Shown piece by piece: positions 6,711 to 35,838 of a stretch of 64,000 nt of DNA. This DNA is from a virus. Both the position numbers and the translations under genes were made by a program. The notes under the pieces are model-generated. The model was not told the DNA's origin. It did not search any database and saw nothing but the letters and a program-made list of their open reading frames with translations. The stretch lies in the UHGV virus genome UHGV-0371537; one strand, written 5' to 3'. The first letter of the stretch is position 1; every line of letters begins with the position of its first letter.

Positions 6711-6751
6711 CTAAATACCCCTAGATGAAACGAACACATTTAGGGGTATTT
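6711..6751 (+). promoter_or_regulatory. late-promoter-like CTAAATA plus 11-bp hairpin covering the SD region
   Basis: CTAAATACCCCTA (6711-6723) pairs with TAGGGGTATTT (6741-6751); ATG 6755 follows 3 nt later. Confidence 0.5.
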
Positions 6752-6754
6752 GAA

Positions 6755-9736
6755 ATGGCTAATAAACCAACACAGCCTGTTTTCCCTCTCGGTCTGGCGG
6801 CTGAAGAGCAGTCTACTTTGGCTGGTGTCCTCAACACGGGTACGATTGAGCATGGACCAGATGCTGTCCTGACTTTACCAGAGGGTAATGCCAGCGCAGG
6901 ACTCCCGTCTTCCGTTCGCTACAATGCCGACTCCGACGAATTTGAGGGCTTCTATGAAAATGGTGGATGGTTGCCGCTGGGTGGCGGTGGTATCCGCTGG
7001 GAAGTCCTTCCGCATGCCTCTACGGCAACGCTCACTGAAGGGCGAGGCTATCTCATTAATAATACCACAGGGGCATCTACAGTGGTTCTCCCTTCCCCTA
7101 CGCGTATTGGGGATTCCGTTACTATTTGTGATGCTTATGGGAAATTTGCCACTTACCCATTGACCGTGTCTCCTTCTGGAAATAATTTGTATGGCTCCAC
7201 TGAAGACATGGCTATAACAACTGATAACGTATCAGCAACGTTCACTTGGTCTGGACCTGAACAAGGTTGGATTATTACATCCGGCGTCGGTCTTGGCCAA
7301 GGTCGTGTCTACAGTCGTGAAATCTTTACAAAAATTTTGGCGTCTGAAACAAGTTCTGTCGCTCTCAATACTCCACCAACAATTGTGGACGTGTATGCTG
7401 ACGGAAAACGTCTTGCGGAATCCAAATATTCACTAGATGGGAATGTAATCACTTTCAGTCCTTCTTTGCCAGCCAACACAGAACTTCAGGTGATTGAATA
7501 TACTCCTATTCAATTGGGTAATGTCAGTGGTTCTGGTTCTTCTACGATTACCTGGGTCTATAATGGGGGTTCAGCGATTGGTGGTGAAACCGAAATCACG
7601 TTGGACGTCGTTGTTGATGATGTTCCGGCCATTGATATAAACGGAAGTCGCCAGTATAAAAATCTGGGATTCACATTCGATCCATTAACCAGTAAAATCA
7701 CTCTTGCGCAAGAACTGGAACCAGAGGATGAAGTTGTTGTAATTATCAATGGAACACCAAACATCTATAATCAAATTGATTATACTTTGCGGGAAGTTGC
7801 TCGAGCAACCAATGTTAAAGATACAGAGGTCGTTTATTTTAGTGTTGGTGCTGCGTTAAGTGGGTATAAAGTTATTTATGACAAGGAGACGCAAAGGGCT
7901 TATCCCTTGCCTGCTGATATTGTCCCTGGTACTACTGCTGTCAGTCTTAGTTCTTCCGCTATACTTGTGCATTCTGCTGGTAGTGTTGATCTGGGCGCAT
8001 TAGCTGTATCTCGTGAAGAATATGTTACATTGTCTGGGACATTTGATTCTGGTGCTGTCATCAATGTTAAAAATGAATTACTCACCCATACTGATGGAAA
8101 GTATCGTTGGGATGGTACACTTCCTAAAACCGTTGCTCCTGGCTCAACTCTTATGACAACAGGCGGCGTTGGTGTTGGCGCATGGATTAGTGTTGGTGAT
8201 GCTTCATTGAAGTCAGAATTGGCTAAACCTACAGGAGCAGGTTTTTCAGGTTTTGATAAGTCAATTGATTACGAAACTGGTACTGTTGGCAATGCGCTTA
8301 AGAAAATTATAAATGTCAACCCGGATATGTATCCATCATTACAGGATGCGATTGATGCTGCGGCAGCTTTAACAGGTTTAGAACATGCACCAAGTAGTGC
8401 TGCTAACCATCCTGACTGGCTACAACCTAACACTGTAAGCAAAGTTATCAGGCTGAATGGGAAGAAATATCCTATCAGTACGACACTACACATTCACGGA
8501 GATGTTAGCATTGATGCTGGTTTCGGTGGGGTGTACCTCACCGATGACTTCGTTGCAGACTCCTCTGGCTATGCTGTTAAATGCGATAAAGGGACGGGTA
8601 ATCAATACGCTGGGCATATCAGCAACTTATTAATTGATGCCCGTGCAAAAACTGTTAATGGGTTTAAGATATCCGATGGCTATGCTAACAAGTTAGAAGG
8701 CATTTACGTAGCCAACGTTGATGGTCATGGCATCCATATTGCTGGCGGTATGGGTGTGCACCTATTGAAGTTTTATGCTGTTGGTGTATTAAAACCAACT
8801 AATCCGCTCAGCACAGCCCACATTGTTGAAGGTAGCGATCATCAGGTTAGCATGGGTGAAGGTCGTTATTTCCGATTTGGTACCTGGGTTCGTGGTGGTG
8901 GTAATAACAGAATTGGTAAGGTGCACAACTGGGGCATGTATGACGATACAGTCACCGACCAGAACTCAAGGATGAAATGCTGCTTTGTTGTACAGAACTC
9001 AATAAACAATTCCTTCAATCAATGTTTTGCAGATTCTCCATCAAAATGGGACTACACGAAAGCTAATTTAGATCCTGTAGATGGTTATATTAACGGCGGG
9101 ATTGGTTTTTTTATTGATGGTGGAGCCACCGGTAATACGTTCTCTCAATGCCAGACGTTTGTGAATATGAATGCGTTTAATGACGCAGGGTTATCTGCAT
9201 ATGCGGCATCACTAATGCCATTCGCCGTTGGCAGTATCAATTGCTCATTCATTGAGTGTGAAAACTCAAACTCACCAGCATGGGTGGCAAGACTGATAAC
9301 TCATATTTACTCTGTGGATCAGGCATTTACTAACATACTCGCAGCTAAGAATTTTGTTGGTATAGAGTATGATATGGTTTGCAATGGTACAATTTTCAGG
9401 AAAAATGTTGGAGTTCCTGTATTGGTAAGAAATTCAAAGTTCGAGACGCCAACAGCAAGTTATGCGCCTAACTTTTCAGACGCATCTTACATCGCAGCTA
9501 CAGTTACAGGAGATGTAACAATAACACCAGCAGTATTAACAAATACACTAATTGGTTATGTTGAGGTTCTTTTGGCTGTCTATTCAACAACATCTAAAAC
9601 AATAACATTTGGTGCAAATGTTATATTAGCAAGTAGTACCCCATCTTTGACAGCAGCTGGAACACAAGTTTTTAGGTTGTCAACAACTGATGGAGGAACG
9701 ACTTGGTTCTGTAAGTTCGAGAGTGCTTACCCGTAA
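6755..9736 (+). CDS. tailspike protein, long form with N-terminal extension (TSP4-like)
   Basis: Internal anchor domain (aa ~350-510) paralogous to the N-termini of the 9839 and 15080 genes (VSREEYVTL, VKNELLTHT, KYRWDG); track start ATG 6725 lies in a hairpin loop, ATG 6755 follows the CTAAATA motif and hairpin. Confidence 0.8.
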   Translation: MANKPTQPVFPLGLAAEEQSTLAGVLNTGTIEHGPDAVLTLPEGNASAGLPSSVRYNADSDEFEGFYENGGWLPLGGGGIRWEVLPHASTATLTEGRGYLINNTTGASTVVLPSPTRIGDSVTICDAYGKFATYPLTVSPSGNNLYGSTEDMAITTDNVSATFTWSGPEQGWIITSGVGLGQGRVYSREIFTKILASETSSVALNTPPTIVDVYADGKRLAESKYSLDGNVITFSPSLPANTELQVIEYTPIQLGNVSGSGSSTITWVYNGGSAIGGETEITLDVVVDDVPAIDINGSRQYKNLGFTFDPLTSKITLAQELEPEDEVVVIINGTPNIYNQIDYTLREVARATNVKDTEVVYFSVGAALSGYKVIYDKETQRAYPLPADIVPGTTAVSLSSSAILVHSAGSVDLGALAVSREEYVTLSGTFDSGAVINVKNELLTHTDGKYRWDGTLPKTVAPGSTLMTTGGVGVGAWISVGDASLKSELAKPTGAGFSGFDKSIDYETGTVGNALKKIINVNPDMYPSLQDAIDAAAALTGLEHAPSSAANHPDWLQPNTVSKVIRLNGKKYPISTTLHIHGDVSIDAGFGGVYLTDDFVADSSGYAVKCDKGTGNQYAGHISNLLIDARAKTVNGFKISDGYANKLEGIYVANVDGHGIHIAGGMGVHLLKFYAVGVLKPTNPLSTAHIVEGSDHQVSMGEGRYFRFGTWVRGGGNNRIGKVHNWGMYDDTVTDQNSRMKCCFVVQNSINNSFNQCFADSPSKWDYTKANLDPVDGYINGGIGFFIDGGATGNTFSQCQTFVNMNAFNDAGLSAYAASLMPFAVGSINCSFIECENSNSPAWVARLITHIYSVDQAFTNILAAKNFVGIEYDMVCNGTIFRKNVGVPVLVRNSKFETPTASYAPNFSDASYIAATVTGDVTITPAVLTNTLIGYVEVLLAVYSTTSKTITFGANVILASSTPSLTAAGTQVFRLSTTDGGTTWFCKFESAYP

Positions 9737-9740
9737 AACT

Positions 9741-9766
9741 AACCCCCTCTTCGGCAGGGTTCTTGT
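9741..9766 (+). terminator. degenerate copy of the AACCCCGCTTCGGCGGGGTT terminator
   Basis: AACCCCCTCTTCGGCAGGGTT immediately after the tailspike stop at 9736. Confidence 0.35.
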
Positions 9767-9798
9767 TATACCTTTGTTCATAAATTTATTAGTTCAGC

Positions 9799-9834
9799 CT
9801 AAATACCCCATATTGGTCATCCTTTATGGGGTAT
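9799..9834 (+). promoter_or_regulatory. late-promoter-like CTAAATA plus 9-bp hairpin covering the SD region
   Basis: ATACCCCAT (9803-9811) pairs with ATGGGGTAT (9826-9834); ATG 9839. Confidence 0.5.
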
Positions 9835-9838
9835 TATC

Positions 9839-11788
9839 ATGATTTCTCAATTCAATCAACCACGCGGCTCCACTTCCATAGAAGTTAACAAACAATCTAT
9901 CGCTCGAAATTTCGGTGTCAAAGAAGACGAAGTCGTTTATTTCACTGCTGGTATTGATCTCAGTGGATTTAAAGTAATTTATAATGAGTCTACCCAACGG
10001 GCTTATTCTCTTCCTTCAGGTATTGTTTCAGGAACGACTGCTGTTAGTCTTAGTGCTAACGCTGTTCTTATGCACTCAGCTGGTTCTATAGACCTCGGAG
10101 AATTAGCCGTATCTCGTGAAGAATACGTTACATTGCCTGGGTCATTCACCTCGGGTGCTACGCTTAATGTTAAAAATGAATTGCTTACCCATACAACAGG
10201 CAAGTATCGCTGGGACGGGGAATTTCCTAAAACCGTTTCTGCAGGTTCTACCCCTGAATCTGCTGGTGGTGTTGGTCCTAGTGCGTGGGTTAGTGTTGGT
10301 GTTGCTTCTTTAAGAGCAGACCTGGAAAAACCAACAGGGGCAGGATTGATTGGATTTGGCTGTTCTCCATATATAAATAGAAATATTGGAGATGTTCTCC
10401 AGGATATACCAACGAACAAATATTTTGGTGCAAAGTGTGATGGCGTAACTGATGATACTGTAGCTAACCAAACTGCACTTGATTGGTCTGCTGACAATAA
10501 AAGAGATGTTATTTTTGTTGGAAAAAGCTGCATAACAAGCAGACTTGTACACAATTCAGGCTCCAGGGTAACACATCTTGGAGAGATCAAACCTCGTGAT
10601 TTTTCTGATGATGTTGTTATTGAGGTAAAGGACGATGCGTGGCGTGATCCTTACAATGATGGAATAACAGCAATCGATACTGGCGATAGAGTTCATATTG
10701 ATGGTCTATGTATTGCCCCTGACTCTGTAATAGATGCTGTTGGTATTCTTGGCACTGATGGAGTGGATCCGATCATATCAAGATTAAGAACATTCAACAT
10801 GAGAAGGGGAGGAATTAAGATTGTTAAGGGGTATGGATGGAACATATCAAACATTTCAATCATTGCACCTTTTGATCAAAATAACTCTCATGATTATGCA
10901 GGAATTAGGCATGAAACGTCAGATTCATTTTATTCTAGCGTTATAGTTTCAGGATATACTACTGGACTTGATATGCCTGGAAATGCTAATCAAGTATCAA
11001 AGGCCCACTGCTGGGGAATGTCATTACCAGATAGAACCACTCGTAATATGTTATTCGGCCTTAAAATGAGCGGTAGTGGTAATAACGTAGTGCAATTCTA
11101 TTCTGATTCTCCTAAAAAAATTGATAAAACACAAGCTGCAAGCATTACAAATGGTGGGATTGGCTATGTAATTTCTGGTTTTAACAACACATTTTTATCA
11201 CCTAGGAACCTATCTCATCAGGATTGTGGCTTGAAATATGGTAAGGTTTTTCTGATATCTGGTTCTGAGAATACCTTTATTAGCCCCTTAATAGGTGATT
11301 ATGACTACATTGAAGATGATGGATTTTTCACATTTACAGATTCGGCAAGCCCGCTAAACAACTATGTTTATGGTGGCAACATGCAATCTACATATTTGTA
11401 CCCAATTGCAAGTGGTAGCTATAAACCAACTGTAAACATCCCATGCACATACAGCTCTCAAATATATAACCATAATATCATTCAGAAAAATGTTATGGGA
11501 AGAGTTGTTATTACATGCAATATTACAAGTAATTCATCCGACGATCCATTCTATATACAACTGCCACCTTATCTATCAGCTGTATCTGGGATGGCAAGTG
11601 GATCAATAATTAACAACCTTACATCGTCAGTAAGAGCTGATAGCAACCTTTTTGCAGTCGAACCTTATGTTTCAAATGGTAAAATCTACTTCCGTAGATT
11701 ATTTAGATCTGGAGCTGCTGATGATATAAAGCAAAATATGCTTAACACAGGTAATGCTTTCTTTGATATATCAATAAATGCAAGATAA
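9839..11788 (+). CDS. tailspike protein, short form (TSP3-like)
   Basis: N-terminal anchor domain shared with the other three tailspike genes; 649 aa. Confidence 0.8.
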   Translation: MISQFNQPRGSTSIEVNKQSIARNFGVKEDEVVYFTAGIDLSGFKVIYNESTQRAYSLPSGIVSGTTAVSLSANAVLMHSAGSIDLGELAVSREEYVTLPGSFTSGATLNVKNELLTHTTGKYRWDGEFPKTVSAGSTPESAGGVGPSAWVSVGVASLRADLEKPTGAGLIGFGCSPYINRNIGDVLQDIPTNKYFGAKCDGVTDDTVANQTALDWSADNKRDVIFVGKSCITSRLVHNSGSRVTHLGEIKPRDFSDDVVIEVKDDAWRDPYNDGITAIDTGDRVHIDGLCIAPDSVIDAVGILGTDGVDPIISRLRTFNMRRGGIKIVKGYGWNISNISIIAPFDQNNSHDYAGIRHETSDSFYSSVIVSGYTTGLDMPGNANQVSKAHCWGMSLPDRTTRNMLFGLKMSGSGNNVVQFYSDSPKKIDKTQAASITNGGIGYVISGFNNTFLSPRNLSHQDCGLKYGKVFLISGSENTFISPLIGDYDYIEDDGFFTFTDSASPLNNYVYGGNMQSTYLYPIASGSYKPTVNIPCTYSSQIYNHNIIQKNVMGRVVITCNITSNSSDDPFYIQLPPYLSAVSGMASGSIINNLTSSVRADSNLFAVEPYVSNGKIYFRRLFRSGAADDIKQNMLNTGNAFFDISINAR

Positions 11789-11791
11789 ATA

Positions 11792-11822
11792 AGTAGAGCA
11801 GCAACATGATTGCTGCTCTACT
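11792..11822 (+). terminator. perfect 12-bp hairpin after the tailspike stop
   Basis: AGTAGAGCAGCA pairs with TGCTGCTCTACT around a 7-nt loop; weak T-tract. Confidence 0.4.
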
Positions 11823-11834
11823 TTCTCATACAAC

Positions 11835-11978
11835 CTAATTGAAGTTAGTGGGTATATTACAGGAGGTAAAATATTCTTTAGAAGGTTATTCAGAAGCGGC
11901 TCTCCTGTTGATGTTCAGATAACAGATCTGATAACAGGTTATGCATCAATAGACTTGAGCTTTACTTGCCAGCTATAA
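11835..11978 (+). pseudogene. vestigial C-terminal fragment of a tailspike gene
   Basis: Translates to EVSGYITGGKIFFRRLFRSGSPVDVQITDLITGYASIDLSFTCQL*, homologous to the last ~45 aa of the 9839-11788 tailspike (core GKI(F/Y)FRRLFRSG 11 of 12 identical) but divergent at DNA level; no start codon. Confidence 0.6.
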
Positions 11979-11983
11979 ACAAA

Positions 11984-12010
11984 AACCCCGCTTCGGCGGG
12001 GTTAGTTTTA
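11984..12010 (+). terminator. rho-independent terminator (AACCCCGC-TTCG-GCGGGGTT)
   Basis: 8-bp GC-rich stem with TTCG loop followed by T-rich tail. Confidence 0.7.
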
Positions 12011-12278
12011 TCATCAGAATGGTATTGAATCACTGTTGGTAATAGTAGGCTCATTGCCTCTTGGTTGGTTTGGATGCTGTTCAGTATAACCGGTTCCAAC
12101 CAAACCAATGAGGCAGTGGGTAAGGGGGGTTTTTGTTGTACCCCAAACAATTCATTAGGTAGACTGTTTTAGTCAATTACGACTTAACTAACCTGAGAAA
12201 ATCCCTATGGGAAATGAACCAGATAACGTAACTCTAGCCAGACTCGAAGAGAGACTGAGAAACATTTTCGAAAACCAA

Positions 12279-12305
12279 AACCCCGCTTCGGCGGGGTTCT
12301 TATTA
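12279..12305 (+). terminator. rho-independent terminator, second exact copy
   Basis: Identical 20-mer AACCCCGCTTCGGCGGGGTT followed by CTTATTAT. Confidence 0.7.
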
Positions 12306-12336
12306 TATCCATGTTCATAAATTTTATTAGTTCAGG

Positions 12337-12373
12337 CTAAATACCCCATATTGGCAAATCCTCTATGGGGTAT
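12337..12373 (+). promoter_or_regulatory. late-promoter-like CTAAATA plus 9-bp hairpin covering the SD region
   Basis: ATACCCCAT (12341-12349) pairs with ATGGGGTAT (12365-12373); ATG 12380. Confidence 0.5.
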
Positions 12374-12379
12374 CTTCAA

Positions 12380-15022
12380 ATGACCAGAAACGTCGAGAGC
12401 ATCTTTGGAGCGGTCGTAACAGCTCCGCACCAGATTCCATACACTTACACAGCAACGGGCGGAGAGAAGTTTATCTCCCTCCCGTTCTATCCTGTTACGG
12501 GCTTCATCACCATCAATGGGGGTGTTCAGGTTCCGACAGACAATTTCGAAATCGATGGTAACACTGTCAACCTGGGTCGAGCACTTGAGACCGGGGATGT
12601 TGTGTATTGCTTGTTTGACAAGATCCTGTCTCCAGAAGATTATGAAAACGGGATCCGCATCTACAAGTTCCAGACCGTTGGTAACGAGACCTCATTCACC
12701 CCAGACTTCACGACATATGGTGTGCAGTCTCTGTATGTTGACGGGAAGTTCCAGGTGCCGGACGTCAACTACACGTATTCCCCAACCAATGGTGTCGTTA
12801 ATTTCCTGACTGGATCTCCGGCGGCTGGTGTTTGGGTTGTTGCAGAAATGTCTGTGAAGCAGCCAAACATTTCCCCTCTCTTCGATAGAACAATTCAAGA
12901 AGTGGCCAGATCTGCGAAAGTTAAGGACTCGGATGTTGTTATCGCTGTATCCGGTGCTTCACTTTCTTCCAAGAAAGTCATCTTTGATAAAACTGCGCAA
13001 AGATGGTACTCGCTGTCAACCGGGTTGACTTCCACGGTGGTCAGTTTGGTTGATGGAATCCTCACTCACTCTTCAGGTACTGTTGATTTAGGTGCGCTGG
13101 CGGTTACTCGTGGCGAATATTTCACCATGTCTGAAACCTTCACAACCGGGTTCACAATCAGAGTGAAGAATGAGATCGTCAGCGACGGAACATATCTTTA
13201 TCGCTGGGCTGGTAGTTTGCCAAAAGTTGTTTCCGCTGGAACAACCGTGGACAACACCGGGGGTGTGAGTGCGAGTGCCTGGGTGAGATCAGATCAAAGA
13301 ACCATCAGCACCGTCAAGAGACAACTACAGCAATCCTACACGATGGCAGAATTAGTGGCCAAAACTGACATACAGTTGGGCGACTCTTTCCTTTGCTCGG
13401 ACAGGGCATATGGTGTTTATGACGTCGTTTCTTCGGTGGCTTACCCACCAAATGGTTATTCGAACGTAGTCAGCACAGTGAACTCCGGTTTGGTGTTCAG
13501 ACTGCGTGTGGTTGCTAACACAATCGATTTGGAGCAAATTGGTGGTAAGCCTCTCATCTGGGGAACCCAAGAAATCGACTGTAAACAGGCGTTGCAGGAA
13601 GCTTTCTATCTCTTGCTCGACTCCGAGAGCGCGACGGTTGATCTGAAGTCCAACAAATGGTTGCTGTCATCTTATGTGTTCAACGACGTCAAACAGCGCC
13701 GGAAAATTGTTGGTAACAACGCCATTATCTATGGGATGCCAGATGACGGTGTGACCAACTATGATTACCTGGTGAGTACTGCATGGAACTACCAAGACAT
13801 CGAAGGTGTTACGTTCGACTGTCAGTGGAACCCTCGTTATGCATGCTGTCTCCGTATCACTCATGGGTACGGACGATACGATGGCCTGACGATTCGTAAA
13901 GCTCGTTGCGCCATTCAGGTTGGTAAGAGCGAGGAAAGCCGGGTCAGCCTCAGCGAATTCATGTTCACACAACTTCGCACTGAAGAATGTGCGAAAGTCG
14001 CAATTGTTCACGGGCTTTATTCTGTGCTTAACATCAGCGATTCCATCGTGGCTTGCGGCGAGGGCGCTTTCTGGAAAACATATGACTGTACCGGGTTCAC
14101 CATCTATGGTGGTCGCGTATTCCTGATGAAATGTGGGGGCAACAGCAACGTCATCAACTTAGACAACCCTTATGTCTATTGCGCAAATACCACGGTTGCA
14201 GGCGCTCCATATATCGGTTCGTTCAACGCAGTGCAGTGCGACTTTGAATTCAGGACTCGCTTCTGCATCGTGAACGATACGACGACAGTTTATCAAGATT
14301 ACAACCAAGCAGTTGTTCTTGATTCTTGCCGAATTGGTGTATTCGCCAGCCTGGACTCTCGTGCGTTGAATTTCTTTGAAAGTAACGTCGGATACCGTGG
14401 GCAGCTCCGGATTAAGAACACAGATCTTCTGTTCGACACCACCGTGTCTCTGCCGCCGATCAAAGCTGGTGGGCATACCATCGTGGATATTGATTATGAT
14501 TCGATCTACATTCCTAACTTCAGGGGTCCAAAGATGGTCAGCTTCGCTGGTTATCCTCCGGTTCTTCCAGTCGGGATTGTGTTCCAGAACAACGTTGGGG
14601 CTGACACTCCTCTTTCTGGTAACCAGTTTGTGAACTTTTCTAACCCGATCATTGGCTTGGATTCTGATTCCTCTCTGCTTAGCAGCAACTGGAACTCGTC
14701 CACCAAGAAATTCGAATTGCCTCCTGGTGGCTTGAGTGATGTTACCGTCACTGTACGTCTGACATTGAAAGATCCTGCCACCGCCCCGGTGACAGCGTTG
14801 GTGGAATACAACAACGGCACAGCGATTGGACTTGCATTCGGGACAATCCCGGTTGGATCCAAAGATCTTTTGATCACTGGCAGGATCCGGGATCTTCGAG
14901 ATACAGCCCAGATATATTGTATCACGAGTTCTACAGCGGCGTACACCCTCAGCAATACCGGGGCATATGACTCTACTATGACAATTGAGGCCAGCATTCG
15001 GCCTCCGAAGACTAAAAGTTAA
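12380..15022 (+). CDS. tailspike protein, long form (TSP2-like)
   Basis: Internal anchor domain (VTRGEYFTM, VKNEIVSDGTYLYRW); track start ATG 12365 lies in the 3-prime arm of the promoter-proximal hairpin, ATG 12380 is in frame 15 nt downstream. Confidence 0.75.
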   Translation: MTRNVESIFGAVVTAPHQIPYTYTATGGEKFISLPFYPVTGFITINGGVQVPTDNFEIDGNTVNLGRALETGDVVYCLFDKILSPEDYENGIRIYKFQTVGNETSFTPDFTTYGVQSLYVDGKFQVPDVNYTYSPTNGVVNFLTGSPAAGVWVVAEMSVKQPNISPLFDRTIQEVARSAKVKDSDVVIAVSGASLSSKKVIFDKTAQRWYSLSTGLTSTVVSLVDGILTHSSGTVDLGALAVTRGEYFTMSETFTTGFTIRVKNEIVSDGTYLYRWAGSLPKVVSAGTTVDNTGGVSASAWVRSDQRTISTVKRQLQQSYTMAELVAKTDIQLGDSFLCSDRAYGVYDVVSSVAYPPNGYSNVVSTVNSGLVFRLRVVANTIDLEQIGGKPLIWGTQEIDCKQALQEAFYLLLDSESATVDLKSNKWLLSSYVFNDVKQRRKIVGNNAIIYGMPDDGVTNYDYLVSTAWNYQDIEGVTFDCQWNPRYACCLRITHGYGRYDGLTIRKARCAIQVGKSEESRVSLSEFMFTQLRTEECAKVAIVHGLYSVLNISDSIVACGEGAFWKTYDCTGFTIYGGRVFLMKCGGNSNVINLDNPYVYCANTTVAGAPYIGSFNAVQCDFEFRTRFCIVNDTTTVYQDYNQAVVLDSCRIGVFASLDSRALNFFESNVGYRGQLRIKNTDLLFDTTVSLPPIKAGGHTIVDIDYDSIYIPNFRGPKMVSFAGYPPVLPVGIVFQNNVGADTPLSGNQFVNFSNPIIGLDSDSSLLSSNWNSSTKKFELPPGGLSDVTVTVRLTLKDPATAPVTALVEYNNGTAIGLAFGTIPVGSKDLLITGRIRDLRDTAQIYCITSSTAAYTLSNTGAYDSTMTIEASIRPPKTKS

Positions 15023-15079: not shown

Positions 15080-17347
15080 ATGAATCCGCAATTTTCACAG
15101 CCGAAAGGCGCTGTCTCCAAAGAGACAAACAAAGACTCTATTGCACGCAAATTCGGTTGCAAGAAGTCTGAGGTTCTGTATGCCAAGACGGGCGCTGCCC
15201 TGACCGGTTACAAGGTGATCTATGATAAGGTCACTCAGCGCTCCTATGCTCTGCCTTCTAACCTGCCCGCTGGCGCTACCATCACCAGCTTGGCAGATGG
15301 TGTTCTTGTACATTCTGGCGGCACTGTAGACCTCGGAGCACTCGCTGTACTTCGGGAAGAGTTCGTAACTCTGGTTGAGAATTTCACTTCCGGGTTTACG
15401 ATTCGGGTCAAGAATGAAGTCGTGAGTGATGGAACGTACCTGTATCGTTGGGGTGGTTCGTTACCAAAGACCGTCAATGCTTCATCAACTGTTGCTGGGA
15501 CGGGTGGGATTTCTCCTAGTGCTTGGGTGGGCGTGGGAAACACTTCATTTTTGGGTGTTGACGGCGCAACATTAGTGGGGTATCAAAACCCTCGTTCAAC
15601 TGTGAACGAAACAATAAAATCCGCTCTTGATAAAATAAACATGAAAGTTATCTTTGCGGCGGATTGGGGTGTTAAAACTGATTCGTCTGATAACCAGGAT
15701 TCTTTGTGGTCCTTGGGTCAATATCTCTCTGCGTCTACGGAACCGCTGTACGTTGTATTTCCTAGGGGGATAAGTTTGGTCGGGTCACAGCAGTTTGCCG
15801 GGGCGTCTTCGCAAGGATATTCTTATCGACCCAACTATTTACGCCGCTCATGGGCGGACTTGTCCGCCGCTGGTTGGTTTTCCATCAGTGAGACTAATCA
15901 AAAGATCGTCTTAGACATGACCGGGTGGACTTTAAAACTGAACTCTGGATTCAAGCTCGGTTCATTTGATCCGATAACCGGAAATCCCGCACCCGATTCT
16001 CCATCAGAAGATTTAAATTTTATGGCGTCTTCTGGGTATATGATTAAGCTGTATCTCGCACCAAATGTGGAAATTTTGAATGGAACCACTGATGGTAACT
16101 TAACAGGTGCTATTTGGGGTGGTACTTATGGTCCAGCAGGGTATCAAGTCCCAGCATACAATATGTGGATTAATCAATCTGAAGGCGTTTACATATCTCG
16201 GCATACTTTTAAAAACTCTGCCGTTGACGGATTGTATCTTCAAGCCACAGGGAATAGAAATTTCCTAGACATTATCCCCAAAACCATTATCGACAACTGC
16301 ATCATAACAGACTGCGGTCGTAATTGTTATTCTCTCACTGGGGCTGCAAATGTTGAGATGAGAAACATCATTATAACCCGATCGGGTTCAAAGGCCAATG
16401 GCATTTCTACGCACGCAAGTGATCCGCAAGCAGGGGTGGACATTGAAGCGGAAGGTGGCAACCCATATAACATAACCTTCATTAATCCTAAGATCGTTGA
16501 TTGTGCTAAGAACGCTCTTATGACCGTGTCGGTGCCAGGAACTGTCAACGATGTGACTGTAGATGGAGGGGTTATTCACAGTTATTCAGAATTGGGCGCT
16601 GTGTTTAATTCAGGAAACTCTCGTAACATTAAATTCAAAAACGCCACTATAATTGGTGGGGTAATTGATTCTAAAAGCCCTGCAGAAATGGGTTTGGAAT
16701 GTTATTCATTCGAAAACTGCACGTTTGCAAACAGATATGGTAACACCTATGCAATGAATTATCTACTTTCTTTCCGAGTTAGTAAATTTGTTGGTAATAC
16801 CATTGATTTTAATATCCCCACCACTGGGGTAACAGCTCCGACCATCGTTATCAATGATCAAGATGGGGTTGCTAACGGTTACTCGTTAGAACGCTGTAAA
16901 CAGAATCGTATTATCCTGACCGGAAATGCTGCTAATATCACCTATGCCAACGGATTGGGGGGATTTAACTTTTTCCGCAATGCTGAAGTGTTTGTTGAAG
17001 CAGGGGGCATGACGGGAACAACGAAGATGTTGGTAGACACATGTTCTGCAGCGCCTGGAGGCATGCTTACAAATTCTGCTAACTTCAACTTTGGTGTCAC
17101 CATGACTAAAGATACAAGTCGGAATTTATGGTATGCTGCTAAACAATCTTATGTGGGTAGCGTACTGACAGCGGCTCCCACGGCGGCAGGCTCCCAGAAT
17201 GGAAGCCTGGATTTAGGGAGCGTGAATGGAAGATTTCGGACTGGATATTTCGATTCTGGGGTGATTGTCAGGGACGGAGTAACTGGTACGCATTATAGAG
17301 TGCGAGTTACCAGCGGTTCTCTGAATATTGTGGCGGATGAAAATTAA
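15080..17347 (+). CDS. tailspike protein, short form (TSP1-like)
   Basis: N-terminal anchor domain (VLREEFVTL, VKNEVVSDGTYLYRW); AGGAG SD; terminator upstream at 15031. Confidence 0.8.
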   Translation: MNPQFSQPKGAVSKETNKDSIARKFGCKKSEVLYAKTGAALTGYKVIYDKVTQRSYALPSNLPAGATITSLADGVLVHSGGTVDLGALAVLREEFVTLVENFTSGFTIRVKNEVVSDGTYLYRWGGSLPKTVNASSTVAGTGGISPSAWVGVGNTSFLGVDGATLVGYQNPRSTVNETIKSALDKINMKVIFAADWGVKTDSSDNQDSLWSLGQYLSASTEPLYVVFPRGISLVGSQQFAGASSQGYSYRPNYLRRSWADLSAAGWFSISETNQKIVLDMTGWTLKLNSGFKLGSFDPITGNPAPDSPSEDLNFMASSGYMIKLYLAPNVEILNGTTDGNLTGAIWGGTYGPAGYQVPAYNMWINQSEGVYISRHTFKNSAVDGLYLQATGNRNFLDIIPKTIIDNCIITDCGRNCYSLTGAANVEMRNIIITRSGSKANGISTHASDPQAGVDIEAEGGNPYNITFINPKIVDCAKNALMTVSVPGTVNDVTVDGGVIHSYSELGAVFNSGNSRNIKFKNATIIGGVIDSKSPAEMGLECYSFENCTFANRYGNTYAMNYLLSFRVSKFVGNTIDFNIPTTGVTAPTIVINDQDGVANGYSLERCKQNRIILTGNAANITYANGLGGFNFFRNAEVFVEAGGMTGTTKMLVDTCSAAPGGMLTNSANFNFGVTMTKDTSRNLWYAAKQSYVGSVLTAAPTAAGSQNGSLDLGSVNGRFRTGYFDSGVIVRDGVTGTHYRVRVTSGSLNIVADEN

Positions 17348-29026: not shown

Positions 29027-30925
29027 ATGGCAACTACAAGCTTCAGCGTTGCGCCGTCCGTACAATGGACGGAGCGTGATGCCACGCTTCAGACGTCTCC
29101 GTCCGTTGTTGTTCAGGGCGCGACTGTCGGTAAATTCCAGTGGGGGGAAGTTGAACTCCCTGTGCTGGTTACTGGTGGTGAGACTGGTCTGGTGAAGAAA
29201 TTCTTCAAACCTAACGATGACACTGCGGTCGACTTCCTGGTCGTGGCGGACTTCCTGTCCTATAGCTCCACAGCATGGGTCACCCGTGTTGTTGGACCTC
29301 TGGCCAAGAACTCTGTTACCAAAGGCCAGACTGCAATCACCATTAAGAACAAGCTGGACTTCGAAATGGCAAGTCCTTCTGCGTCTATTACCTGGACTGG
29401 TCGCTACCCTGGCTCCCTGGGTAACGATGTGGCTGTGAATATCTGTGATTCCGCGTCTTTCCCGACTTGGGAATTCCGCAATAACTTCGCCTATGCACCG
29501 CAGCCGGGTGAGTATCACATCGTTGTTCTGGACAAAGTGGGTCGCATCACCAACTCTTCCGGCGCTGTCGGCCAGGTTGAACGTATTTCTCTGTCTGGTA
29601 CTGCAACCGCTGATGGCAACATCACTGTTGACGGCGTGGCTTACGACTTCCTGACAGGCGACACAGCGGCTGAAATCGCTGCTCAGCTGGGTACTGACCT
29701 GGCGGCGCTGACCAACAAATTCACCAACGTGGTCGCCAAGTCCAACACCGTGACTTTCACTCGCGTTGACATCGGTCCACAGACTGCGGTGGCTGTGTCG
29801 GTTGAAGCCTACAAAGGCATCAGCATCAGCAACGTTGTGACCACTGTTGGTACTTCCGGCTCAATCATCGAGAAGTATGAACTGATGCAGCAGACCCAGG
29901 GTTCTAAGAAATCCGACGGTTCTAACGCATACTTCAAAGATGTGATCAACGACACTTCCAACTGGGTGTATGTCTTCACCGATACCCTGGCTGCTGGCGT
30001 GACTGAGCTGGAAGGTGGTGTGGACGACTACAACGTGAACCGCGTGGCTGCAATTGAAGTTCTGAACAATGCAGAAGCCTATGCTGCTAAACCAGTGTTT
30101 GCCTACTGTGAAGAACTCATCGAGCAGCAGGCCATCATCGACCTGTCTACCGAGCGCAAAGACACCGTGTCCTTCGTTTCTCCACTGCGCGATAACGTTG
30201 TTGGCAATCGTGGCCGTGAAATGGATGATGTTGTTGCCTGGCGTGAAAGCCTGGTGCGCGACTCTTCCTACTTCTTCATGGACGACAACTGGGCGTATGT
30301 GTACGACAAGTACAACGACAAGATGCGTTGGATCCCTGCTTGTGGTGGTACGGCGGGTGTTTGGGCACGCAGTATTGAACTGGCTGGCATCTACAAGTCT
30401 CCAGCGTTCCATAACCGTGGCAAATACAACAACTACAACCGCATGGCGTGGTCTGCGTCTTCTGATGAGCGTGCTGTCCTGTATCGCAACCAGATCAACA
30501 GCATCGTGACCTTCTCCAACGAAGGCATCGTGCTGTACGGGGACAAGACTGGCCTGACTCGTCCATCTGCGTTCGACCGCATCAACGTTCGCGGCCTGTT
30601 CATTATGGCCGAGCAGAACATCGCTGCAATCGCCAAATACTATCTTGGTGAGAACAACGACGAGTTTACTCGCAGCCTGTTCAGCAACGCCGTTCGTCCG
30701 TATCTGCGCCAGCTGACCAACATGGGCGCGATCTACGACGGTATGGTCAAGTGTGATGCTGACAACAACACCGCCGACATCATCGCTGCGAACCAGATGG
30801 TTGCGGGTATCTGGATGAAACCAGAATACAGTATAAATTGGATTTATCTTGATTTCGCCGCCGTTCGACCAGACATGGAGTTCAGCGAGATCGAAACGGG
30901 TGGTGGCATCGTAGCCGCTTCTTAA
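29027..30925 (+). CDS. gp18: tail sheath protein, T4 gp18-like
   Basis: 632-aa ORF from ATG 29027 (track start is TTG 28994) with GAGAAGGAA SD; CTAAATA at 28978; synteny gp17-gp18-gp19. Confidence 0.85.
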   Translation: MATTSFSVAPSVQWTERDATLQTSPSVVVQGATVGKFQWGEVELPVLVTGGETGLVKKFFKPNDDTAVDFLVVADFLSYSSTAWVTRVVGPLAKNSVTKGQTAITIKNKLDFEMASPSASITWTGRYPGSLGNDVAVNICDSASFPTWEFRNNFAYAPQPGEYHIVVLDKVGRITNSSGAVGQVERISLSGTATADGNITVDGVAYDFLTGDTAAEIAAQLGTDLAALTNKFTNVVAKSNTVTFTRVDIGPQTAVAVSVEAYKGISISNVVTTVGTSGSIIEKYELMQQTQGSKKSDGSNAYFKDVINDTSNWVYVFTDTLAAGVTELEGGVDDYNVNRVAAIEVLNNAEAYAAKPVFAYCEELIEQQAIIDLSTERKDTVSFVSPLRDNVVGNRGREMDDVVAWRESLVRDSSYFFMDDNWAYVYDKYNDKMRWIPACGGTAGVWARSIELAGIYKSPAFHNRGKYNNYNRMAWSASSDERAVLYRNQINSIVTFSNEGIVLYGDKTGLTRPSAFDRINVRGLFIMAEQNIAAIAKYYLGENNDEFTRSLFSNAVRPYLRQLTNMGAIYDGMVKCDADNNTADIIAANQMVAGIWMKPEYSINWIYLDFAAVRPDMEFSEIETGGGIVAAS

Positions 30926-30933
30926 TTTTAAAC

Positions 30934-30958
30934 GCCCCCGAAAGGGGGCTAATTCTTT
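30934..30958 (+). terminator. rho-independent terminator after the sheath gene
   Basis: GCCCCC-GAAA-GGGGGC followed by TAATTCTTT. Confidence 0.65.
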
Positions 30959-30966
30959 GGTGATTT

Positions 30967-31272
30967 ATGAAAACATTTTTGGATTTCCTGAACGAAGGCG
31001 CTTTGAAGGGTGATCTTCAGAAAGTCAAGGACGCCACCATCGAGTGGCTAGAAGACCAAGATGTGCGACTGAAGAAGTCGGACGTTCAGAACGGCGTATT
31101 CGGTGACTTCTTCCGCATCACGATTGACGGTGAATTCGAATACACCTACAACGGCAAAGAAATCCGAGTGATGGACGTCAAGAAAGACAAAGACGTCGCC
31201 ACCAAAGCCGCGTCTTCTCGTGAAGCCCAGGGTGAACTGGCCAAGCTGATGAAGAAGTACAGCAAGGTCTAA
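30967..31272 (+). CDS. hypothetical protein (101 aa) inserted between sheath and tube genes
   Basis: ORF preceded by terminator hairpin 30934-30958. Confidence 0.5.
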   Translation: MKTFLDFLNEGALKGDLQKVKDATIEWLEDQDVRLKKSDVQNGVFGDFFRITIDGEFEYTYNGKEIRVMDVKKDKDVATKAASSREAQGELAKLMKKYSKV

Positions 31273-31330
31273 CAATTCCCAACAGCTTGGCTAATTAGAA
31301 TTGTATAACCCTCTATTTGGAGAATCTATA

Positions 31331-31864
31331 ATGGCTACAGTAAACCAATTTCGAGCGGCCATGTCACGTGGGGGCGGCGTGCAGCGTCAGCACCGCTGGC
31401 GTGTGACCGTAAACTTCCCAGCATTTGTTGCGGGTTCGGACACCATTCGTGATGTGTCTCTGTTGGCTGTAACAACCAACACCCCAACTGGTCAGCTTGG
31501 TGAGATCCTTGTCCCATGGGGTGGTCGTGAATTGCCATTCCCTGGAGACCGTCGTTTTGAAGCGCTGCCTATCACCTTCATCAACGTTGTAGAGAACGGT
31601 CCATACAACGCGTTCGAAGTCTGGCAGCAGTACATCAACGGCAGTAACAACAACCGTGCGTCTGCGAACCCGGATGATTACTTCCGCGACGTGGTTATGG
31701 AACTGTTGGATGCCAACGACAATGTCACCAAGACCTGGACTCTGCAGGGCACCTGGCCTCAGAACCTCGGTCAACTCGAACTGGATATGTCCGCAATGGA
31801 CTCATATACTCAGTTTACCGTTGACCTGCGTTATTTCCAGGCCATCTCTGACCGCTCTCTCTAA
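31331..31864 (+). CDS. gp19: tail tube protein, T4 gp19-like
   Basis: C-terminal GTWPQNLGQLELDM...FTVDLRYFQ resembles the T4 gp19 C-terminus; ATG 31331 with GGAG SD (track start TTG 31301). Confidence 0.8.
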   Translation: MATVNQFRAAMSRGGGVQRQHRWRVTVNFPAFVAGSDTIRDVSLLAVTTNTPTGQLGEILVPWGGRELPFPGDRRFEALPITFINVVENGPYNAFEVWQQYINGSNNNRASANPDDYFRDVVMELLDANDNVTKTWTLQGTWPQNLGQLELDMSAMDSYTQFTVDLRYFQAISDRSL

Positions 31865-31931
31865 TGTCCTCTAGTGCTGGGGGAAGTGAATTCCCCCTCA
31901 CTAATTACAAGAAAATGTTGAGGACTTAATC

Positions 31932-33626: not shown

Positions 33627-33664
33627 TTCGACTAAGTATAGAAAACATTTTAGAGGATACGAAC

Positions 33665-33835
33665 ATGGCCGCTATCGATCTGGTAAAAGCAATCATCGCT
33701 GGTGACACCGATGCAGCTGTAGCTGAGTGTGAAACTGAACTGTCTGCTCGCGCCCAAGAACTGGTACAGCAGGGCACTGCATATGTCATGAACTCTCTGA
33801 GTCAAGACATGAATCCTGTTGACGACGATCAATAA
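33665..33835 (+). CDS. small acidic prohead core-like protein (56 aa), gp67-like position
   Basis: ATG 33665 to TAA 33833-33835; missing from ORF track (under 60 aa); between portal and gp68-like genes. Confidence 0.4.
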   Translation: MAAIDLVKAIIAGDTDAAVAECETELSARAQELVQQGTAYVMNSLSQDMNPVDDDQ

Positions 33836-33847
33836 GAGGGTGGTATC

Positions 33848-34153: not shown

Positions 34154-34160
34154 GGAGCGA

Positions 34161-34829: not shown

Positions 34830-34840
34830 ATTCAGCCTCA

Positions 34841-34847
34841 CTAAATA
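34841..34847 (+). promoter_or_regulatory. late-promoter-like CTAAATA motif upstream of the scaffold gene
   Basis: CTAAATA 28 nt upstream of ATG 34875. Confidence 0.4.
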
Positions 34848-34874
34848 CTGAAAATCGTTCAGAAGGAAACAATC

Positions 34875-35747: not shown

Positions 35748-35760
35748 TTTTAGCAGCCAC

Positions 35761-35786
35761 AGCCCTCGAAAGGGGGCTTGATTTTG
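35761..35786 (+). terminator. terminator-like hairpin after the scaffold gene
   Basis: AGCCCTC-GAAA-GGGGGCT followed by TGATTTTG. Confidence 0.55.
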
Positions 35787-35838
35787 AACTACTAAGTAAT
35801 TTCAACTTAACTGAATATCAATGTAAGGAATGAGCATC

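What the first reader, a model, noticed from the sequence alone, without database searches (positions are those of the whole stretch)
11789..12364. Vestigial tailspike C-terminus and duplicated terminator/promoter cassettes between tailspike genes: footprint of module swapping
After the stop of the 9839-11788 tailspike there is a 12-bp hairpin, then an ORF fragment (11835-11978) whose translation ...GKIFFRRLFRSGSPVDVQITDLITGYASIDLSF... is clearly homologous to the true C-terminus ...GKIYFRRLFRSGAADDIKQNMLNTGNAFFDIS... but divergent at DNA level. It is followed by two exact copies of the terminator AACCCCGCTTCGGCGGGGTT (11984, 12279) about 270 nt apart. The roughly 70-nt cassette of terminator, TGTTCATAAATTT and CTAAATACCCCA at 12279-12347 is about 85-90 percent identical to the one at 9741-9810. 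This looks like replacement of a receptor-binding module by recombination at conserved flanks, leaving the old 3-prime end behind.
Basis: seen in the sequence. Interest (0 to 1): 0.6.

Follow-up and report, generated by a model that had tools for sequence, protein, structure and literature searches.

The report
Layered recombination scars between tailspike genes
The spacer between two tailspike genes of this large E. coli/Salmonella-type phage is dead passenger DNA left by successive swaps of host-recognition modules among a prophage, an N4-like podovirus and this myovirus, which documents the route of a known process and is not a new kind of element.

Summary
After the 649-aa tailspike gene (9839-11788) come a 14-bp hairpin, a start-less 47-codon copy of a tailspike C-terminus (11831-11978), two exact copies of AACCCCGCTTCGGCGGGGTT (11984, 12279), and a terminator/CTAAATACCCC cassette 86% identical to the one at 9741-9810.

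The fragment is the 3' end of a different allele. It is 46/48 aa and 94-95% nt identical to P22-like E. coli prophage tailspikes, and 92% nt to AV101 TSP3.

The footprint-of-swapping reading holds, but three details differ:
- The junction that made the remnant is a 6-nt microhomology (CAACCT) inside the old gene, just past a prophage tailspike/acyltransferase hairpin. It is not at a conserved flank.
- Window 10338-12282 is about 98% identical and collinear with a phi G17-like N4-family podovirus contig. It ends with the first 24 codons of podoviral gp63, so the remnant travelled as a passenger.
- The two terminator copies are not a local duplication. One belongs to the podoviral backbone and the other to the Ackermannviridae cassette.

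AV101 carries analogous scars. Receptor-binding-domain exchange and the conserved terminator motif are already published; the nested scars are apparently not. I judge it an ordinary mechanism with a well-resolved history and moderate interest.

The parts
9732..9838 (+). Upstream copy of the Ackermannviridae inter-tsp cassette. It holds a weak terminator variant CCCCTCTTCGGCAGGG (9744-9759), TGTTCATAAATTT, the CTAAATACCCC motif (9799-9809) and the leader to the TSP3 start codon.
   Evidence: The stretch 9750-10041 is 98-100% identical to Agtrevirus-type phages AV101 and PC3.
9839..10041 (+). 5' part of the TSP3 gene (codons 1-68), resident Ackermannviridae backbone. Identity to AV101/PC3 breaks inside the codons for GTTAVSL.
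   Evidence: 99% identity to AV101 up to 10041, then an abrupt drop. GTTAVSL is the recombination site proposed in PMC8432352.
10042..10337 (+). Middle segment of TSP3, including the Tail_spike_N domain. Its source is unknown, with 60-86% identity to every relative examined.
   Evidence: sliding identity; listed whole-segment matches about 79% identical; PF18668 at residues 90-154.
10338..11788 (+). Current receptor-binding domain of TSP3 with its stop codon, starting at the codons for (PT)GAGLIGFG. It is 98% identical to podovirus contig L007 and 93% identical to an E. coli prophage tailspike (L008).
   Evidence: 28 differences in 1451 nt versus L007.
11791..11823 (.). 14-bp hairpin. It is the bidirectional terminator that sits between a tailspike gene and a convergent O-antigen acyltransferase gene in temperate-phage donors.
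   Evidence: -21.5 kcal/mol. The same hairpin follows the tailspike stop codon in prophages L008 and L013.
11826..11834 (-). Stop codon plus the last two codons (V V *) of the prophage acyltransferase gene: a 9-nt passenger fragment at the donor end of the junction.
   Evidence: alignment with L013 and L008, with translation of the acyltransferase C-termini; PF01757 for the L013 gene.
11831..11978 (+). Vestigial 3' end (48 codons plus stop) of an older tailspike allele of the AV101 TSP3 / P22-like prophage type. It has no start codon and lies in the +1 frame relative to TSP3. The left junction is at the microhomology CAACCT (11831-11836).
   Evidence: 46/48 aa to prophage tailspikes; 94-95% nt to prophages of strains TST3 and TBE6.
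11984..12003 (+). Terminator copy 1 (AACCCCGCTTCGGCGGGGTT). This is the native terminator of the G17/G7C-type podovirus backbone, downstream of its last tailspike gene.
   Evidence: -15.6 kcal/mol. Homology between phi G17 and L007 begins exactly here and continues for 4.3 kb.
12004..12206 (+). Podoviral intergenic DNA (the spacer between the tailspike gene and gp63 in phi G17-type phages). It includes a long stem-loop at 12049-12121 and the gp63 upstream region.
12207..12278 (+). First 24 codons of the N4-family gp63 gene (gp63'). It is truncated and fused to the next terminator, which gives the spurious 37-aa ORF 12207-12320.
   Evidence: alignment with G7C, ST4, phi G17 and PC3. Junction: GAAAACCAAA|ACCCCGC. 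Intact gp63 of L007 matches phrog_5211 and the 37-aa ORF matches nothing. 91-98% identity to the 12 different Gamaleyavirus-type phages and 4 Ackermannviridae phages listed.
12279..12379 (+). Resident Ackermannviridae cassette: terminator copy 2 (12279-12298), TGTTCATAAATTT, the CTAAATACCCC motif (12337-12347) and the leader to TSP2. The first ATG is at 12365; the probable start is ATGACC at 12380.
   Evidence: (100% identity to PC3 from 12300). The motif is listed as an Ackermannviridae regulatory motif in PMC7283392.

Best explanation
The 576-nt spacer is a stack of non-functional recombination scars lying on functional transcription signals. It records at least three transfers of a tailspike receptor-binding domain (RBD) with its 3' flank.

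Step 1, shown by comparison. A lytic phage carried an 'old' tailspike allele of the AV101 TSP3 / P22-like prophage type. Directly after the stop codon came the podoviral terminator AACCCCGCTTCGGCGGGGTT, the podoviral spacer and gp63.

Step 2, junction shown, mechanism inferred.
- DNA from a temperate phage replaced most of that gene. The incoming piece held a related but only about 55-60% identical RBD, its stop codon, the hairpin it shares with a convergent acyltransferase gene, and 9 nt of that acyltransferase gene.
- The left exchange lay in the conserved PTGAGLIGFG-coding stretch.
- The right join was illegitimate, at a 6-nt microhomology (CAACCT) 48 codons before the old stop. The old 3' end therefore survived as an untranslatable remnant.

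Step 3, shown as collinearity about 98% identical, direction inferred.
- The whole block moved between a phi G17-like N4-family podovirus and this Aglimvirinae-type myovirus. The block comprises the RBD, hairpin, remnant, terminator, spacer and the first 24 codons of gp63.
- The right-hand exchange point falls between 12213 and 12282. That is inside, or at the end of, a gp63' scar that PC3, PH4 and A221 carry with the same junction.

Likely working parts today, inferred from sequence alone:
- three tandem stem-loop terminators that end TSP3 transcription;
- the CTAAATACCCC late-promoter-like motif that restarts transcription for TSP2.

The remnant and gp63' do nothing for the virion. They do supply homology to prophage and podovirus genes, and the remnant has been used this way at least once.
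For: Remnant identity
- It is 46/48 aa identical to the C-terminus of many 604-aa prophage tailspikes that carry a P22-type head-binding domain.
- It is 94-95% nt identical to the prophages of strains TST3 and TBE6, with the match starting exactly at 11831.
- It is 92% identical to the AV101 tsp3 3' end and 87% aa identical to Lewi.

Not translatable
- No start codon opens the frame. It lies in the +1 frame behind a TAA (sequence).
- It has no Pfam or PHROG match.

Donor of the current RBD
- Prophage L008 matches window 10331-11833 at 93%, and at 100% over 11600-11799. The match ends at the junction.
- Window 11826-11834 equals the stop codon and last two codons of the convergent acyltransferase gene.

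Block shared with a podovirus
- L007 6052-8445 matches window 9887-12282 in a single alignment. Identity is about 98% overall from 10338 (98-100% in most 50-nt windows), and the hairpin/remnant junction is identical.
- L007 is phi G17-like: 93% identity over 4.3 kb. It carries gp63, holin, endolysin and portal genes in N4-family order.

gp63'
- The alignment with G7C, ST4 and phi G17 shows the 24-codon truncation, and PC3 has the same junction.

Resident backbone
- 9750-10041 and the sequence from 12300 onwards are 98-100% identical to AV101 and PC3.

Recurrence in AV101
- AV101 tsp3 with its flank is 93.8% identical over 2146 nt to the G7C-like podovirus contig L011.
- That flank includes about 206 nt of an antisense prophage acyltransferase fragment and a different gp63' junction.
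- AV101 has a second gp63' scar after TSP1.

Use of the remnant as a homology arm
- The 5 window/L007 differences in the remnant cluster in 31 nt. They reproduce two natural haplotypes of the intact gene, TGYASIDL and TGNATIDL.

Literature
- RBD exchange among Ackermannviridae, Gamaleyavirus and prophages, and a conserved 20-nt downstream terminator motif, are already described.
Against: - The direction of step 3 is not proven. The block could have formed in an Ackermannviridae lineage that already carried podoviral flank DNA, and then moved back into a podovirus.
- The window keeps the prophage orientation of the hairpin loop, while L007 has it inverted. L007 itself is therefore not the direct donor.
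- No genome was found with exactly the predicted pre-swap state (old allele directly followed by the CCCCGCTTCGGCGGGG terminator). L011 and AV101 carry the old allele with a different terminator.
- The right exchange point of step 3 is resolved only to 12213-12282. One site (12269) agrees with the podovirus and not with PC3, so use of a pre-existing gp63' as a homology arm is an inference.
- No expression data exist, so non-function of the remnant, of the 37-aa ORF and of the 12049-12121 stem-loop is inferred and not shown.
- Exact junction searches in IMG/VR and JGI metagenomes found no further carriers.
Confidence: 0.85

Rival explanations
1. In-situ swap. The remnant was made in this phage's own lineage by recombination at the conserved flanks (anchor domain and terminator cassette), and the podovirus later acquired the block from an Ackermannviridae phage.
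For: - The left backbone breakpoint at 10041 lies in the conserved GTTAVSL site.
- The remnant allele is present in an Ackermannviridae phage, AV101.
- The window retains the prophage-like hairpin loop whereas L007 has a derived, inverted loop.
Against: - The remnant's left junction lies inside the old coding sequence at a 6-nt microhomology, not at a conserved flank.
- The DNA to the right of the remnant (11984-12278) is podoviral backbone contiguous with gp63. The old allele had therefore already resided in a podovirus context.
- The second terminator is a separate cassette and not a duplicate produced by the event.
Confidence: 0.15
2. The fragment, or the 37-aa ORF 12207-12320, or the 12049-12121 stem-loop, is a genuine expressed element. 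Candidates would be a small protein, a 3'UTR-derived sRNA, or a regulatory structure for tailspike expression.
For: - The remnant frame is still open over 61 codons in both carriers.
- An AGGAGG lies at 11862-11867 (sequence).
- gp63' keeps its native ribosome-binding region and is 91-98% conserved in four Ackermannviridae genomes.
- The stem-loop folds at -37.7 kcal/mol.
Against: - There is no canonical start codon for the remnant.
- It sits between terminators.
- There are no family matches and no Rfam hit above noise.
- There is no covariation support for the stem-loop, and G7C lacks that stretch altogether.
- The open frames are explained by the youth of the block, which differs from L007 by about 2% overall.
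- The adjoining 9-nt acyltransferase fragment and the truncation of gp63 inside a terminator look accidental.
Confidence: 0.05
3. Local tandem duplication of the gene's own 3' end followed by divergence, or a programmed alternative C-terminus cassette (invertase shufflon or DGR-like switching).
For: Two homologous C-terminal coding segments lie in tandem, 46% identical at the protein level.
Against: - The remnant is 94-95% nt identical to a different, intact allele in prophages. It has no detectable nt similarity to the adjacent gene's own 3' end.
- It is in direct rather than inverted orientation.
- The neighbourhood 6.7-17.3 kb holds only four tailspike genes, with no invertase or reverse transcriptase ORF.
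Confidence: 0.01
4. Assembly chimera: podovirus reads were mis-joined into a myovirus contig.
For: The block is about 98% identical to a podovirus contig, and the window's exact TSP3 protein is not on record elsewhere.
Against: - Both ends of the block are in-frame or motif-precise joins to Ackermannviridae sequence within 2.3 kb.
- The gp63'/terminator junction is identical in the isolate genomes PC3, PH4 and A221.
- Isolate AV101 shows the same architecture with another allele.
Confidence: 0.02

Closest known systems
Conserved DNA motifs flanking tailspike RBDs across lytic coliphage genera (Pas et al. 2023, PMC10408124), including 'motif three', a 20-nt terminator downstream of RBP genes in Gamaleya-, Kutter- and Justusliebigviruses
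   Same: A 20-nt terminator lies a few nucleotides after the stop codon and is shared by the Ackermannviridae cassette and the Gamaleyavirus backbone. [quoted passage not shown]
   Different: That paper proposes these motifs as homologous recombination hotspots and does not mention remnants or intergenic scars (0 occurrences of 'remnant' or 'intergenic'). Here the scar-forming junctions lie outside the motifs, at microhomologies. The motif logo is an image, so I could not verify letter by letter that it equals AACCCCGCTTCGGCGGGGTT.
Ackermannviridae TSP subtypes and the GTTAVSL recombination site (Sorensen et al. 2021, PMC8432352); AV101 TSP1-4 (Sorensen et al. 2023, PMC10791037)
   Same: There are four tandem tsp genes with a conserved N-terminus and a variable RBD. 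The window's backbone identity to AV101 and PC3 ends inside the GTTAVSL codons. The remnant is the AV101 TSP3 allele, which that paper reports as O153-specific, and the paper also notes that AV101 RBDs resemble prophage tailspikes.
   Different: Those papers work at protein and whole-gene level. They do not describe the 3' passenger DNA (acyltransferase fragment, gp63') that shows transfer through a podovirus. AV101's fragment is annotated there only as a hypothetical protein.
Gamaleyavirus (G7C / phi G17) tailspike module gp66 - gp63.1 - terminator - gp63
   Same: Window 11984-12278 is this module's downstream backbone: 85% identical to phi G17 overall and 91-98% identical over the last 155 nt in the 12 different Gamaleyavirus-type phages listed. 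The anchor domain PF18668 (TSP1/Gp66 N-terminal) is shared.
   Different: In the window gp63 is cut after codon 24 and the holin, endolysin and portal genes that follow it in the podovirus are absent. The module sits inside a roughly 150-kb myovirus-type tsp cluster.
K1-5 / K1E / SP6 tailspike cassettes with conserved intergenic linkers and truncated ORFs (recalled from memory of Scholl et al. 2001 and Stummeyer et al. 2006; not checked here)
   Same: The concept is the same: tailspike genes exchanged as cassettes between conserved linkers, with leftover gene fragments.
   Different: It involves a different phage family and different sequences. This is a lead from memory only, not a tested relationship.

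Membership tests
Gene remnant / recombination scar (pseudogene fragment) | High-identity homology to only the terminal part of an intact gene found elsewhere | tested here: met
   94-95% nt identity over 154-160 nt to the 3' ends of prophage tailspike genes; 46/48 aa; 92% nt to AV101 tsp3.
Gene remnant / recombination scar (pseudogene fragment) | No means of independent translation (no start codon, and not in frame with the upstream gene) | tested here: met
   No ORF of 30 aa or more with ATG/GTG/TTG in that frame. It lies in the +1 frame relative to TSP3, behind TAA 11790-11792 (sequence).
Gene remnant / recombination scar (pseudogene fragment) | Boundaries coincide with breakpoints of identity to donor and recipient lineages | tested here: met
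   The donor prophage match ends at 11833 and the old-allele matches begin at 11831.
Gene remnant / recombination scar (pseudogene fragment) | Absence of expression and of purifying selection | not testable with these tools
   Only two carriers are known, with 5 differences that look like a recombination patch. No transcript or proteome data are available.
Ackermannviridae inter-tsp regulatory cassette | CTAAATAcCcc motif upstream of the gene | tested here: met
   Exact copies at 6711, 9799 and 12337, ahead of three tsp genes. The motif is named in PMC7283392. Its role as a late promoter rests on its similarity to the T4 late promoter TATAAATA (my own knowledge) and was not tested.
Ackermannviridae inter-tsp regulatory cassette | Conserved position and sequence in related phages | tested here: met
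   12300-12399 is 100% identical to PC3 and 88-100% identical to AV101. About 110 phage records match this part of the query at 90-95%.
Intrinsic (Rho-independent) terminator | G+C-rich stem-loop followed by a T-run | tested here: met
   11984-12003 and 12279-12298 pass the scan on the + strand. The 11791-11823 hairpin passes only on the - strand and has a weaker T-run on the + strand. Energies are -15.6, -15.3 and -21.5 kcal/mol. Termination activity was not tested.
N4-family gp63 protein (phrog_5211) | Full-length protein of about 110 aa matching the family profile | tested here: not met
   Intact L007 gp63 matches phrog_5211 at E = 2.8e-49. The window ORF 12207-12320 shares only the first 24 codons and matches nothing. 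It is a fragment, not a member.
Invertible or diversity-generating tail-fibre switching systems (Gin/Cin shufflons, DGR) | Alternative C-terminal cassette in inverted orientation with a nearby invertase, or a template repeat with a reverse transcriptase | tested here: not met
   The remnant is in direct orientation. The ORF list for 6-18 kb shows only the tsp genes and short spurious ORFs. The repeat finder on 9600-12500 found no inverted repeat flanking the remnant and no nucleotide repeat of it, and blastn of the remnant against the window found only itself.

The most novel reading that the evidence does not exclude
The scars are not merely passive. The retained prophage-type 3' end and the podoviral gp63' fragment may act as standing homology arms (landing pads). 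They would make the tsp3 slot of Aglimvirinae phages a preferred capture site for RBD cassettes from Gamaleyaviruses and temperate phages, so each illegitimate capture raises the rate of later homologous captures.

Three observations support this reading:
- the haplotype patch inside the remnant;
- the right-hand exchange point falling in gp63';
- the recurrence of gp63' scars after TSP3 (window, PC3, PH4, A221, AV101) and after TSP1 (AV101).
Probability: 0.3. Interest if true: 0.55.

Novelty: new member of a known kind. Interest (0 to 1): 0.4.

Why it matters
Tailspike RBD exchange sets the host range of Ackermannviridae and Gamaleyavirus phages, which are candidates for therapy and biocontrol. 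Published evidence for it is mostly protein-level similarity.

This locus preserves the passenger DNA of successive hops: 9 nt of a prophage acyltransferase gene, 48 codons of the displaced allele, and a podoviral terminator, spacer and 24 codons of gp63. That gives base-pair-level junctions and shows a route linking temperate phage, N4-like podovirus and myovirus; the order prophage, then podovirus, then myovirus is the likely one but is not proven.

The locus also shows three other things:
- Capture events can end by microhomology rather than at the conserved motifs.
- One backbone breakpoint falls in the GTTAVSL site predicted in the literature.
- Some 'hypothetical proteins' annotated between tsp genes, for example in AV101, are probably such scars.

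The practical value lies in annotation and in choosing homology arms for engineering. It is not a new mechanism.

Tried and rejected
- tRNA scan of the window: none found.
- Rfam E-value scan of 9000-13000: only sub-threshold noise, such as mir-4868 and RsmY terminator-like hits.
- Consensus folding of the 12004-12135 element with phi G17, ST4 and Lewi: no supported common structure.
- Exact-match searches for the hairpin/remnant junction and the gp63'/terminator junction in IMG/VR and JGI metagenomes: no hits.
- Exact look-up of the window's TSP3 protein: not on record.
- Source of 10042-10337: the listed whole-segment matches are about 79% identical.
- phi G17's own last tailspike CDS is unrelated to TSP3. 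Only its downstream backbone is shared.
- PC3's TSP3 RBD is not G7C gp63.1-like at the nucleotide level. The donor of PC3's own gp63' scar therefore stays unknown.
- A first query with wrong-frame coordinates failed.
- I considered and rejected tandem duplication, a shufflon or DGR, and an assembly chimera (see the rival explanations).
Full report
CONTEXT

The window carries four tandem + strand tailspike (tsp) genes: 6725-9736, 9839-11788, 12365/12380-15022 and 15080-17347. This layout is typical of Ackermannviridae.
- Its structural genes are only 87-91% identical to known Aglimvirinae-type phages.
- Its 649-aa TSP3 is not on record anywhere.
- The genome is therefore a new relative of AV101 and PC3, not a deposited phage.

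The finding concerns the spacer between the second and third tsp genes.

- Hairpin: the stem has 14 perfect pairs, at 11791-11804 and 11810-11823, and folds at -21.5 kcal/mol.
- Remnant: 11835-11978 reads LIEVSGYITGGKIFFRRLFRSGSPVDVQITDLITGYASIDLSFTCQL*.
  - It is 46% identical to the last 46 residues of the adjacent gene, E = 2e-11.
  - It has no detectable nucleotide similarity to that gene's 3' end.
- Terminator: AACCCCGCTTCGGCGGGGTT is present exactly at 11984 and 12279.
- Cassette: 12279-12347 is 86% identical to 9741-9810.
- CTAAATACCCC occurs five times in the window, always on the + strand, and three of the copies lie directly ahead of tsp genes. Chance expectation is 0.39. The motif is listed as an Ackermannviridae regulatory motif in PMC7283392. 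I call it late-promoter-like from its resemblance to the T4 late promoter TATAAATA, which is my own knowledge.

2. WHAT THE FRAGMENT IS

It is the 3' end of a different allele of the same tailspike family.
- 46/48 aa are identical to the C-terminus of a widespread 604-aa E. coli prophage tailspike that carries a P22-type head-binding domain.
- It is 94-95% nt identical to the prophages of strains TST3 and TBE6, with the match beginning exactly at 11831.
- It is 92% nt identical to the end of AV101 tsp3. That protein is reported to recognise the O153 antigen (PMC10791037).
- It is 87% aa identical to a 616-aa ORF of the siphovirus-type phage EcoIv28_Lewi.

It cannot be translated on its own. 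No ATG, GTG or TTG opens the frame. It lies in the +1 frame relative to TSP3, behind a TAA at 11790-11792 (sequence).

3. HOW THE REMNANT AROSE

The current RBD and the hairpin are of temperate-phage type.
- Prophage locus L008 matches window 10331-11833 at 93%, and at 100% over 11600-11799. The match stops at the junction.
- In prophages L008 and L013 the tailspike gene converges on an O-antigen acyltransferase gene (PF01757), and the hairpin lies between the two genes.
- Window 11826-11834 (TCATACAAC) is the stop codon and last two codons of that acyltransferase on the minus strand.

The join itself is a microhomology.
- Donor: ...CTCATACAACCTTTGATGTTAGTGG...
- Old allele: ...GACACCAACCTAATTGAAGTTAGAGGG...
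- Window: ...CTCATACAACCTAATTGAAGTTAGTGGG...
- The join therefore lies in the shared CAACCT, with some patchy similarity beyond it.

This is illegitimate recombination mediated by microhomology, 48 codons before the old stop. It is not an exchange at a conserved flank.

4. THE REMNANT IS A PASSENGER IN A LARGER BLOCK

- A 70,073-bp Logan contig (L007) aligns with window 9887-12282 in one piece.
- From 10338 to 12282 identity is about 98% overall, and 98-100% in most 50-nt windows. The hairpin/remnant junction is the same.
- L007 is a phi G17-like N4-family podovirus. It is 93% identical to phi G17 over 4.3 kb, starting exactly at the terminator. The genes that follow are gp63, holin, endolysin and portal.
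- Window 11984-12206 is thus the podoviral terminator and spacer.
- Window 12207-12278 is the first 24 codons of podoviral gp63, cut at GAAAACCAAA|ACCCCGC, where the Ackermannviridae cassette begins.
- The 37-aa ORF 12207-12320 is this fragment read into the terminator. Intact gp63 matches phrog_5211 and the fragment matches nothing.
- The two exact terminator copies therefore have different histories. One is podoviral backbone and the other is the resident cassette. Both phage groups use the same 20-nt terminator, which is very probably the 'motif three' of Pas et al. 2023.

5. THE RESIDENT BACKBONE AND ITS BREAKPOINTS

- Window 9750-10041 is 98-100% identical to AV101 and PC3. Identity collapses at 10041/10042, inside the codons for GTTAVSL. 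This is the site Sorensen et al. 2021 proposed for recombination.
- Segment 10042-10337 has no close relative.
- The podovirus-like block starts at about 10338, at the codons for (PT)GAGLIGFG. Prophage homology also starts there.
- On the right, the sequence is 100% identical to PC3 from 12300 onwards.
- PC3, PH4 and A221 have the same gp63'/terminator junction, but their gp63' is about 8-9% diverged from the window's.
- Informative sites place the right-hand exchange between 12213 and 12282.

A pre-existing gp63' scar may therefore have served as the right homology arm. This is an inference, and the alternative that the junction first arose in the window's lineage is not excluded.

6. THE PATTERN RECURS

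- AV101 tsp3 with its flank (L001 2436-4570) is 93.8% identical to another G7C-like podovirus contig, L011. That contig carries the intact old allele, P0007 of 649 aa.
- Both AV101 and L011 retain about 206 nt of an antisense prophage acyltransferase gene downstream of the tailspike gene.
- AV101 ends this stretch in a different gp63' junction, at about codon 33.
- AV101's annotated hypothetical protein WJJ54144.1 lies on that acyltransferase fragment.
- AV101 has a second, G17-type gp63' scar 77 nt after TSP1.
- In the phage collection the 155-nt gp63' element occurs in 12 different Gamaleyavirus-type phages and 4 Ackermannviridae phages (20 matching records once duplicate records are counted).

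7. THE REMNANT HAS BEEN USED AS HOMOLOGY

- Window and L007 differ at 5 positions in the remnant. All 5 lie within 11924-11954.
- These differences convert TGYASIDL into TGNATIDL. Both haplotypes exist, at nucleotide level, in intact genes: TST3 and AV101 carry one, L011 and Lewi the other.
- Because the illegitimate junction is identical in both carriers, it has a single origin. The simplest reading is a later recombination patch with an intact allele.

8. FUNCTION

The likely working parts are three tandem stem-loop terminators and one promoter-like motif. The remnant, the 9-nt acyltransferase fragment and gp63' are best read as neutral scars. I could not test expression.

9. NOVELTY

The following are already published:
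- RBD exchange among Ackermannviridae, Gamaleyavirus and prophages;
- conserved N-terminal recombination sites;
- the conserved downstream terminator.

None of the four papers checked mentions remnants or intergenic scars. The finding is therefore a well-resolved new example of a known process. It adds junction-level detail and a route linking temperate phage, podovirus and myovirus whose direction is likely but not proven.

Noticed in passing
window 11805-11809; L007 7970-7974: The hairpin loop reads CATGA in the window, the same orientation as in prophage L013, but TCATG in the podovirus contig L007. The stems are identical, so the whole palindrome is inverted between otherwise about 98% identical blocks.
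   Followed up: partly
window 12049-12121: A long, nearly perfect stem-loop (-37.7 kcal/mol) lies in the podovirus-derived spacer. Related sequence occurs in phi G17, ST4 and Lewi but is absent from G7C. A four-sequence consensus fold gave no covariation support.
   Followed up: partly
window 9600-9761; L003 4796-4956: The 3' end of the first tailspike gene (6725-9736) plus its terminator is 88% identical to the 3' end of a 259-aa ORF in the siphovirus-type phage EcoIv28_Lewi. In Lewi this ORF directly follows the old-allele tailspike, and a G17-like terminator and spacer follow it.
   Followed up: no
window 9802-9812 / 9825-9835 and 12340-12350 / 12364-12373: In both cassettes the 3' half of the CTAAATACCCC motif (AATACCCCATA) is the reverse complement of TATGGGGTAT(T), which lies just upstream of the start codon. 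This is a conserved 10-11-nt inverted repeat that could form a leader hairpin (read from the sequence).
   Followed up: no
window 37190-37210: A further exact copy of the terminator core CCCCGCTTCGGCGGGG lies far from the tsp cluster.
   Followed up: no
L001 4149-4582 and L014 1501-1653 (phage AV101, OQ973471.1): AV101's spacer after tsp3 is also scar DNA: an antisense prophage acyltransferase fragment (annotated as hypothetical protein WJJ54144.1), then podoviral spacer, then a gp63' fragment with a different junction. A second gp63' scar (96.8% identical to the window's) lies 77 nt after AV101 TSP1.
   Followed up: partly
window 12365 vs 12380: The third tailspike ORF opens at ATG 12365 (ATGGGGTAT..., the start used in the PC3 annotation). 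The in-frame ATGACC at 12380 is the start used in AV101. By analogy with the TSP3 cassette it is the more likely start, so the spacer probably ends at 12379.
   Followed up: partly
window 10950-11100: 16 of the 28 differences between the window and L007 in the RBD cluster in this 150-nt stretch, where identity to prophage L008 is 82-94%. This suggests a further small recombination patch inside the functional RBD.
   Followed up: no
window 30000-36000: The portal, sheath and prohead genes are at most 87-91% identical to any phage in the INPHARED collection (best matches ZQ1, LHE287, pSal-SNUABM-02 and Dickeya limestoneviruses). The window therefore comes from an undeposited Aglimvirinae-like phage.
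   Followed up: partly
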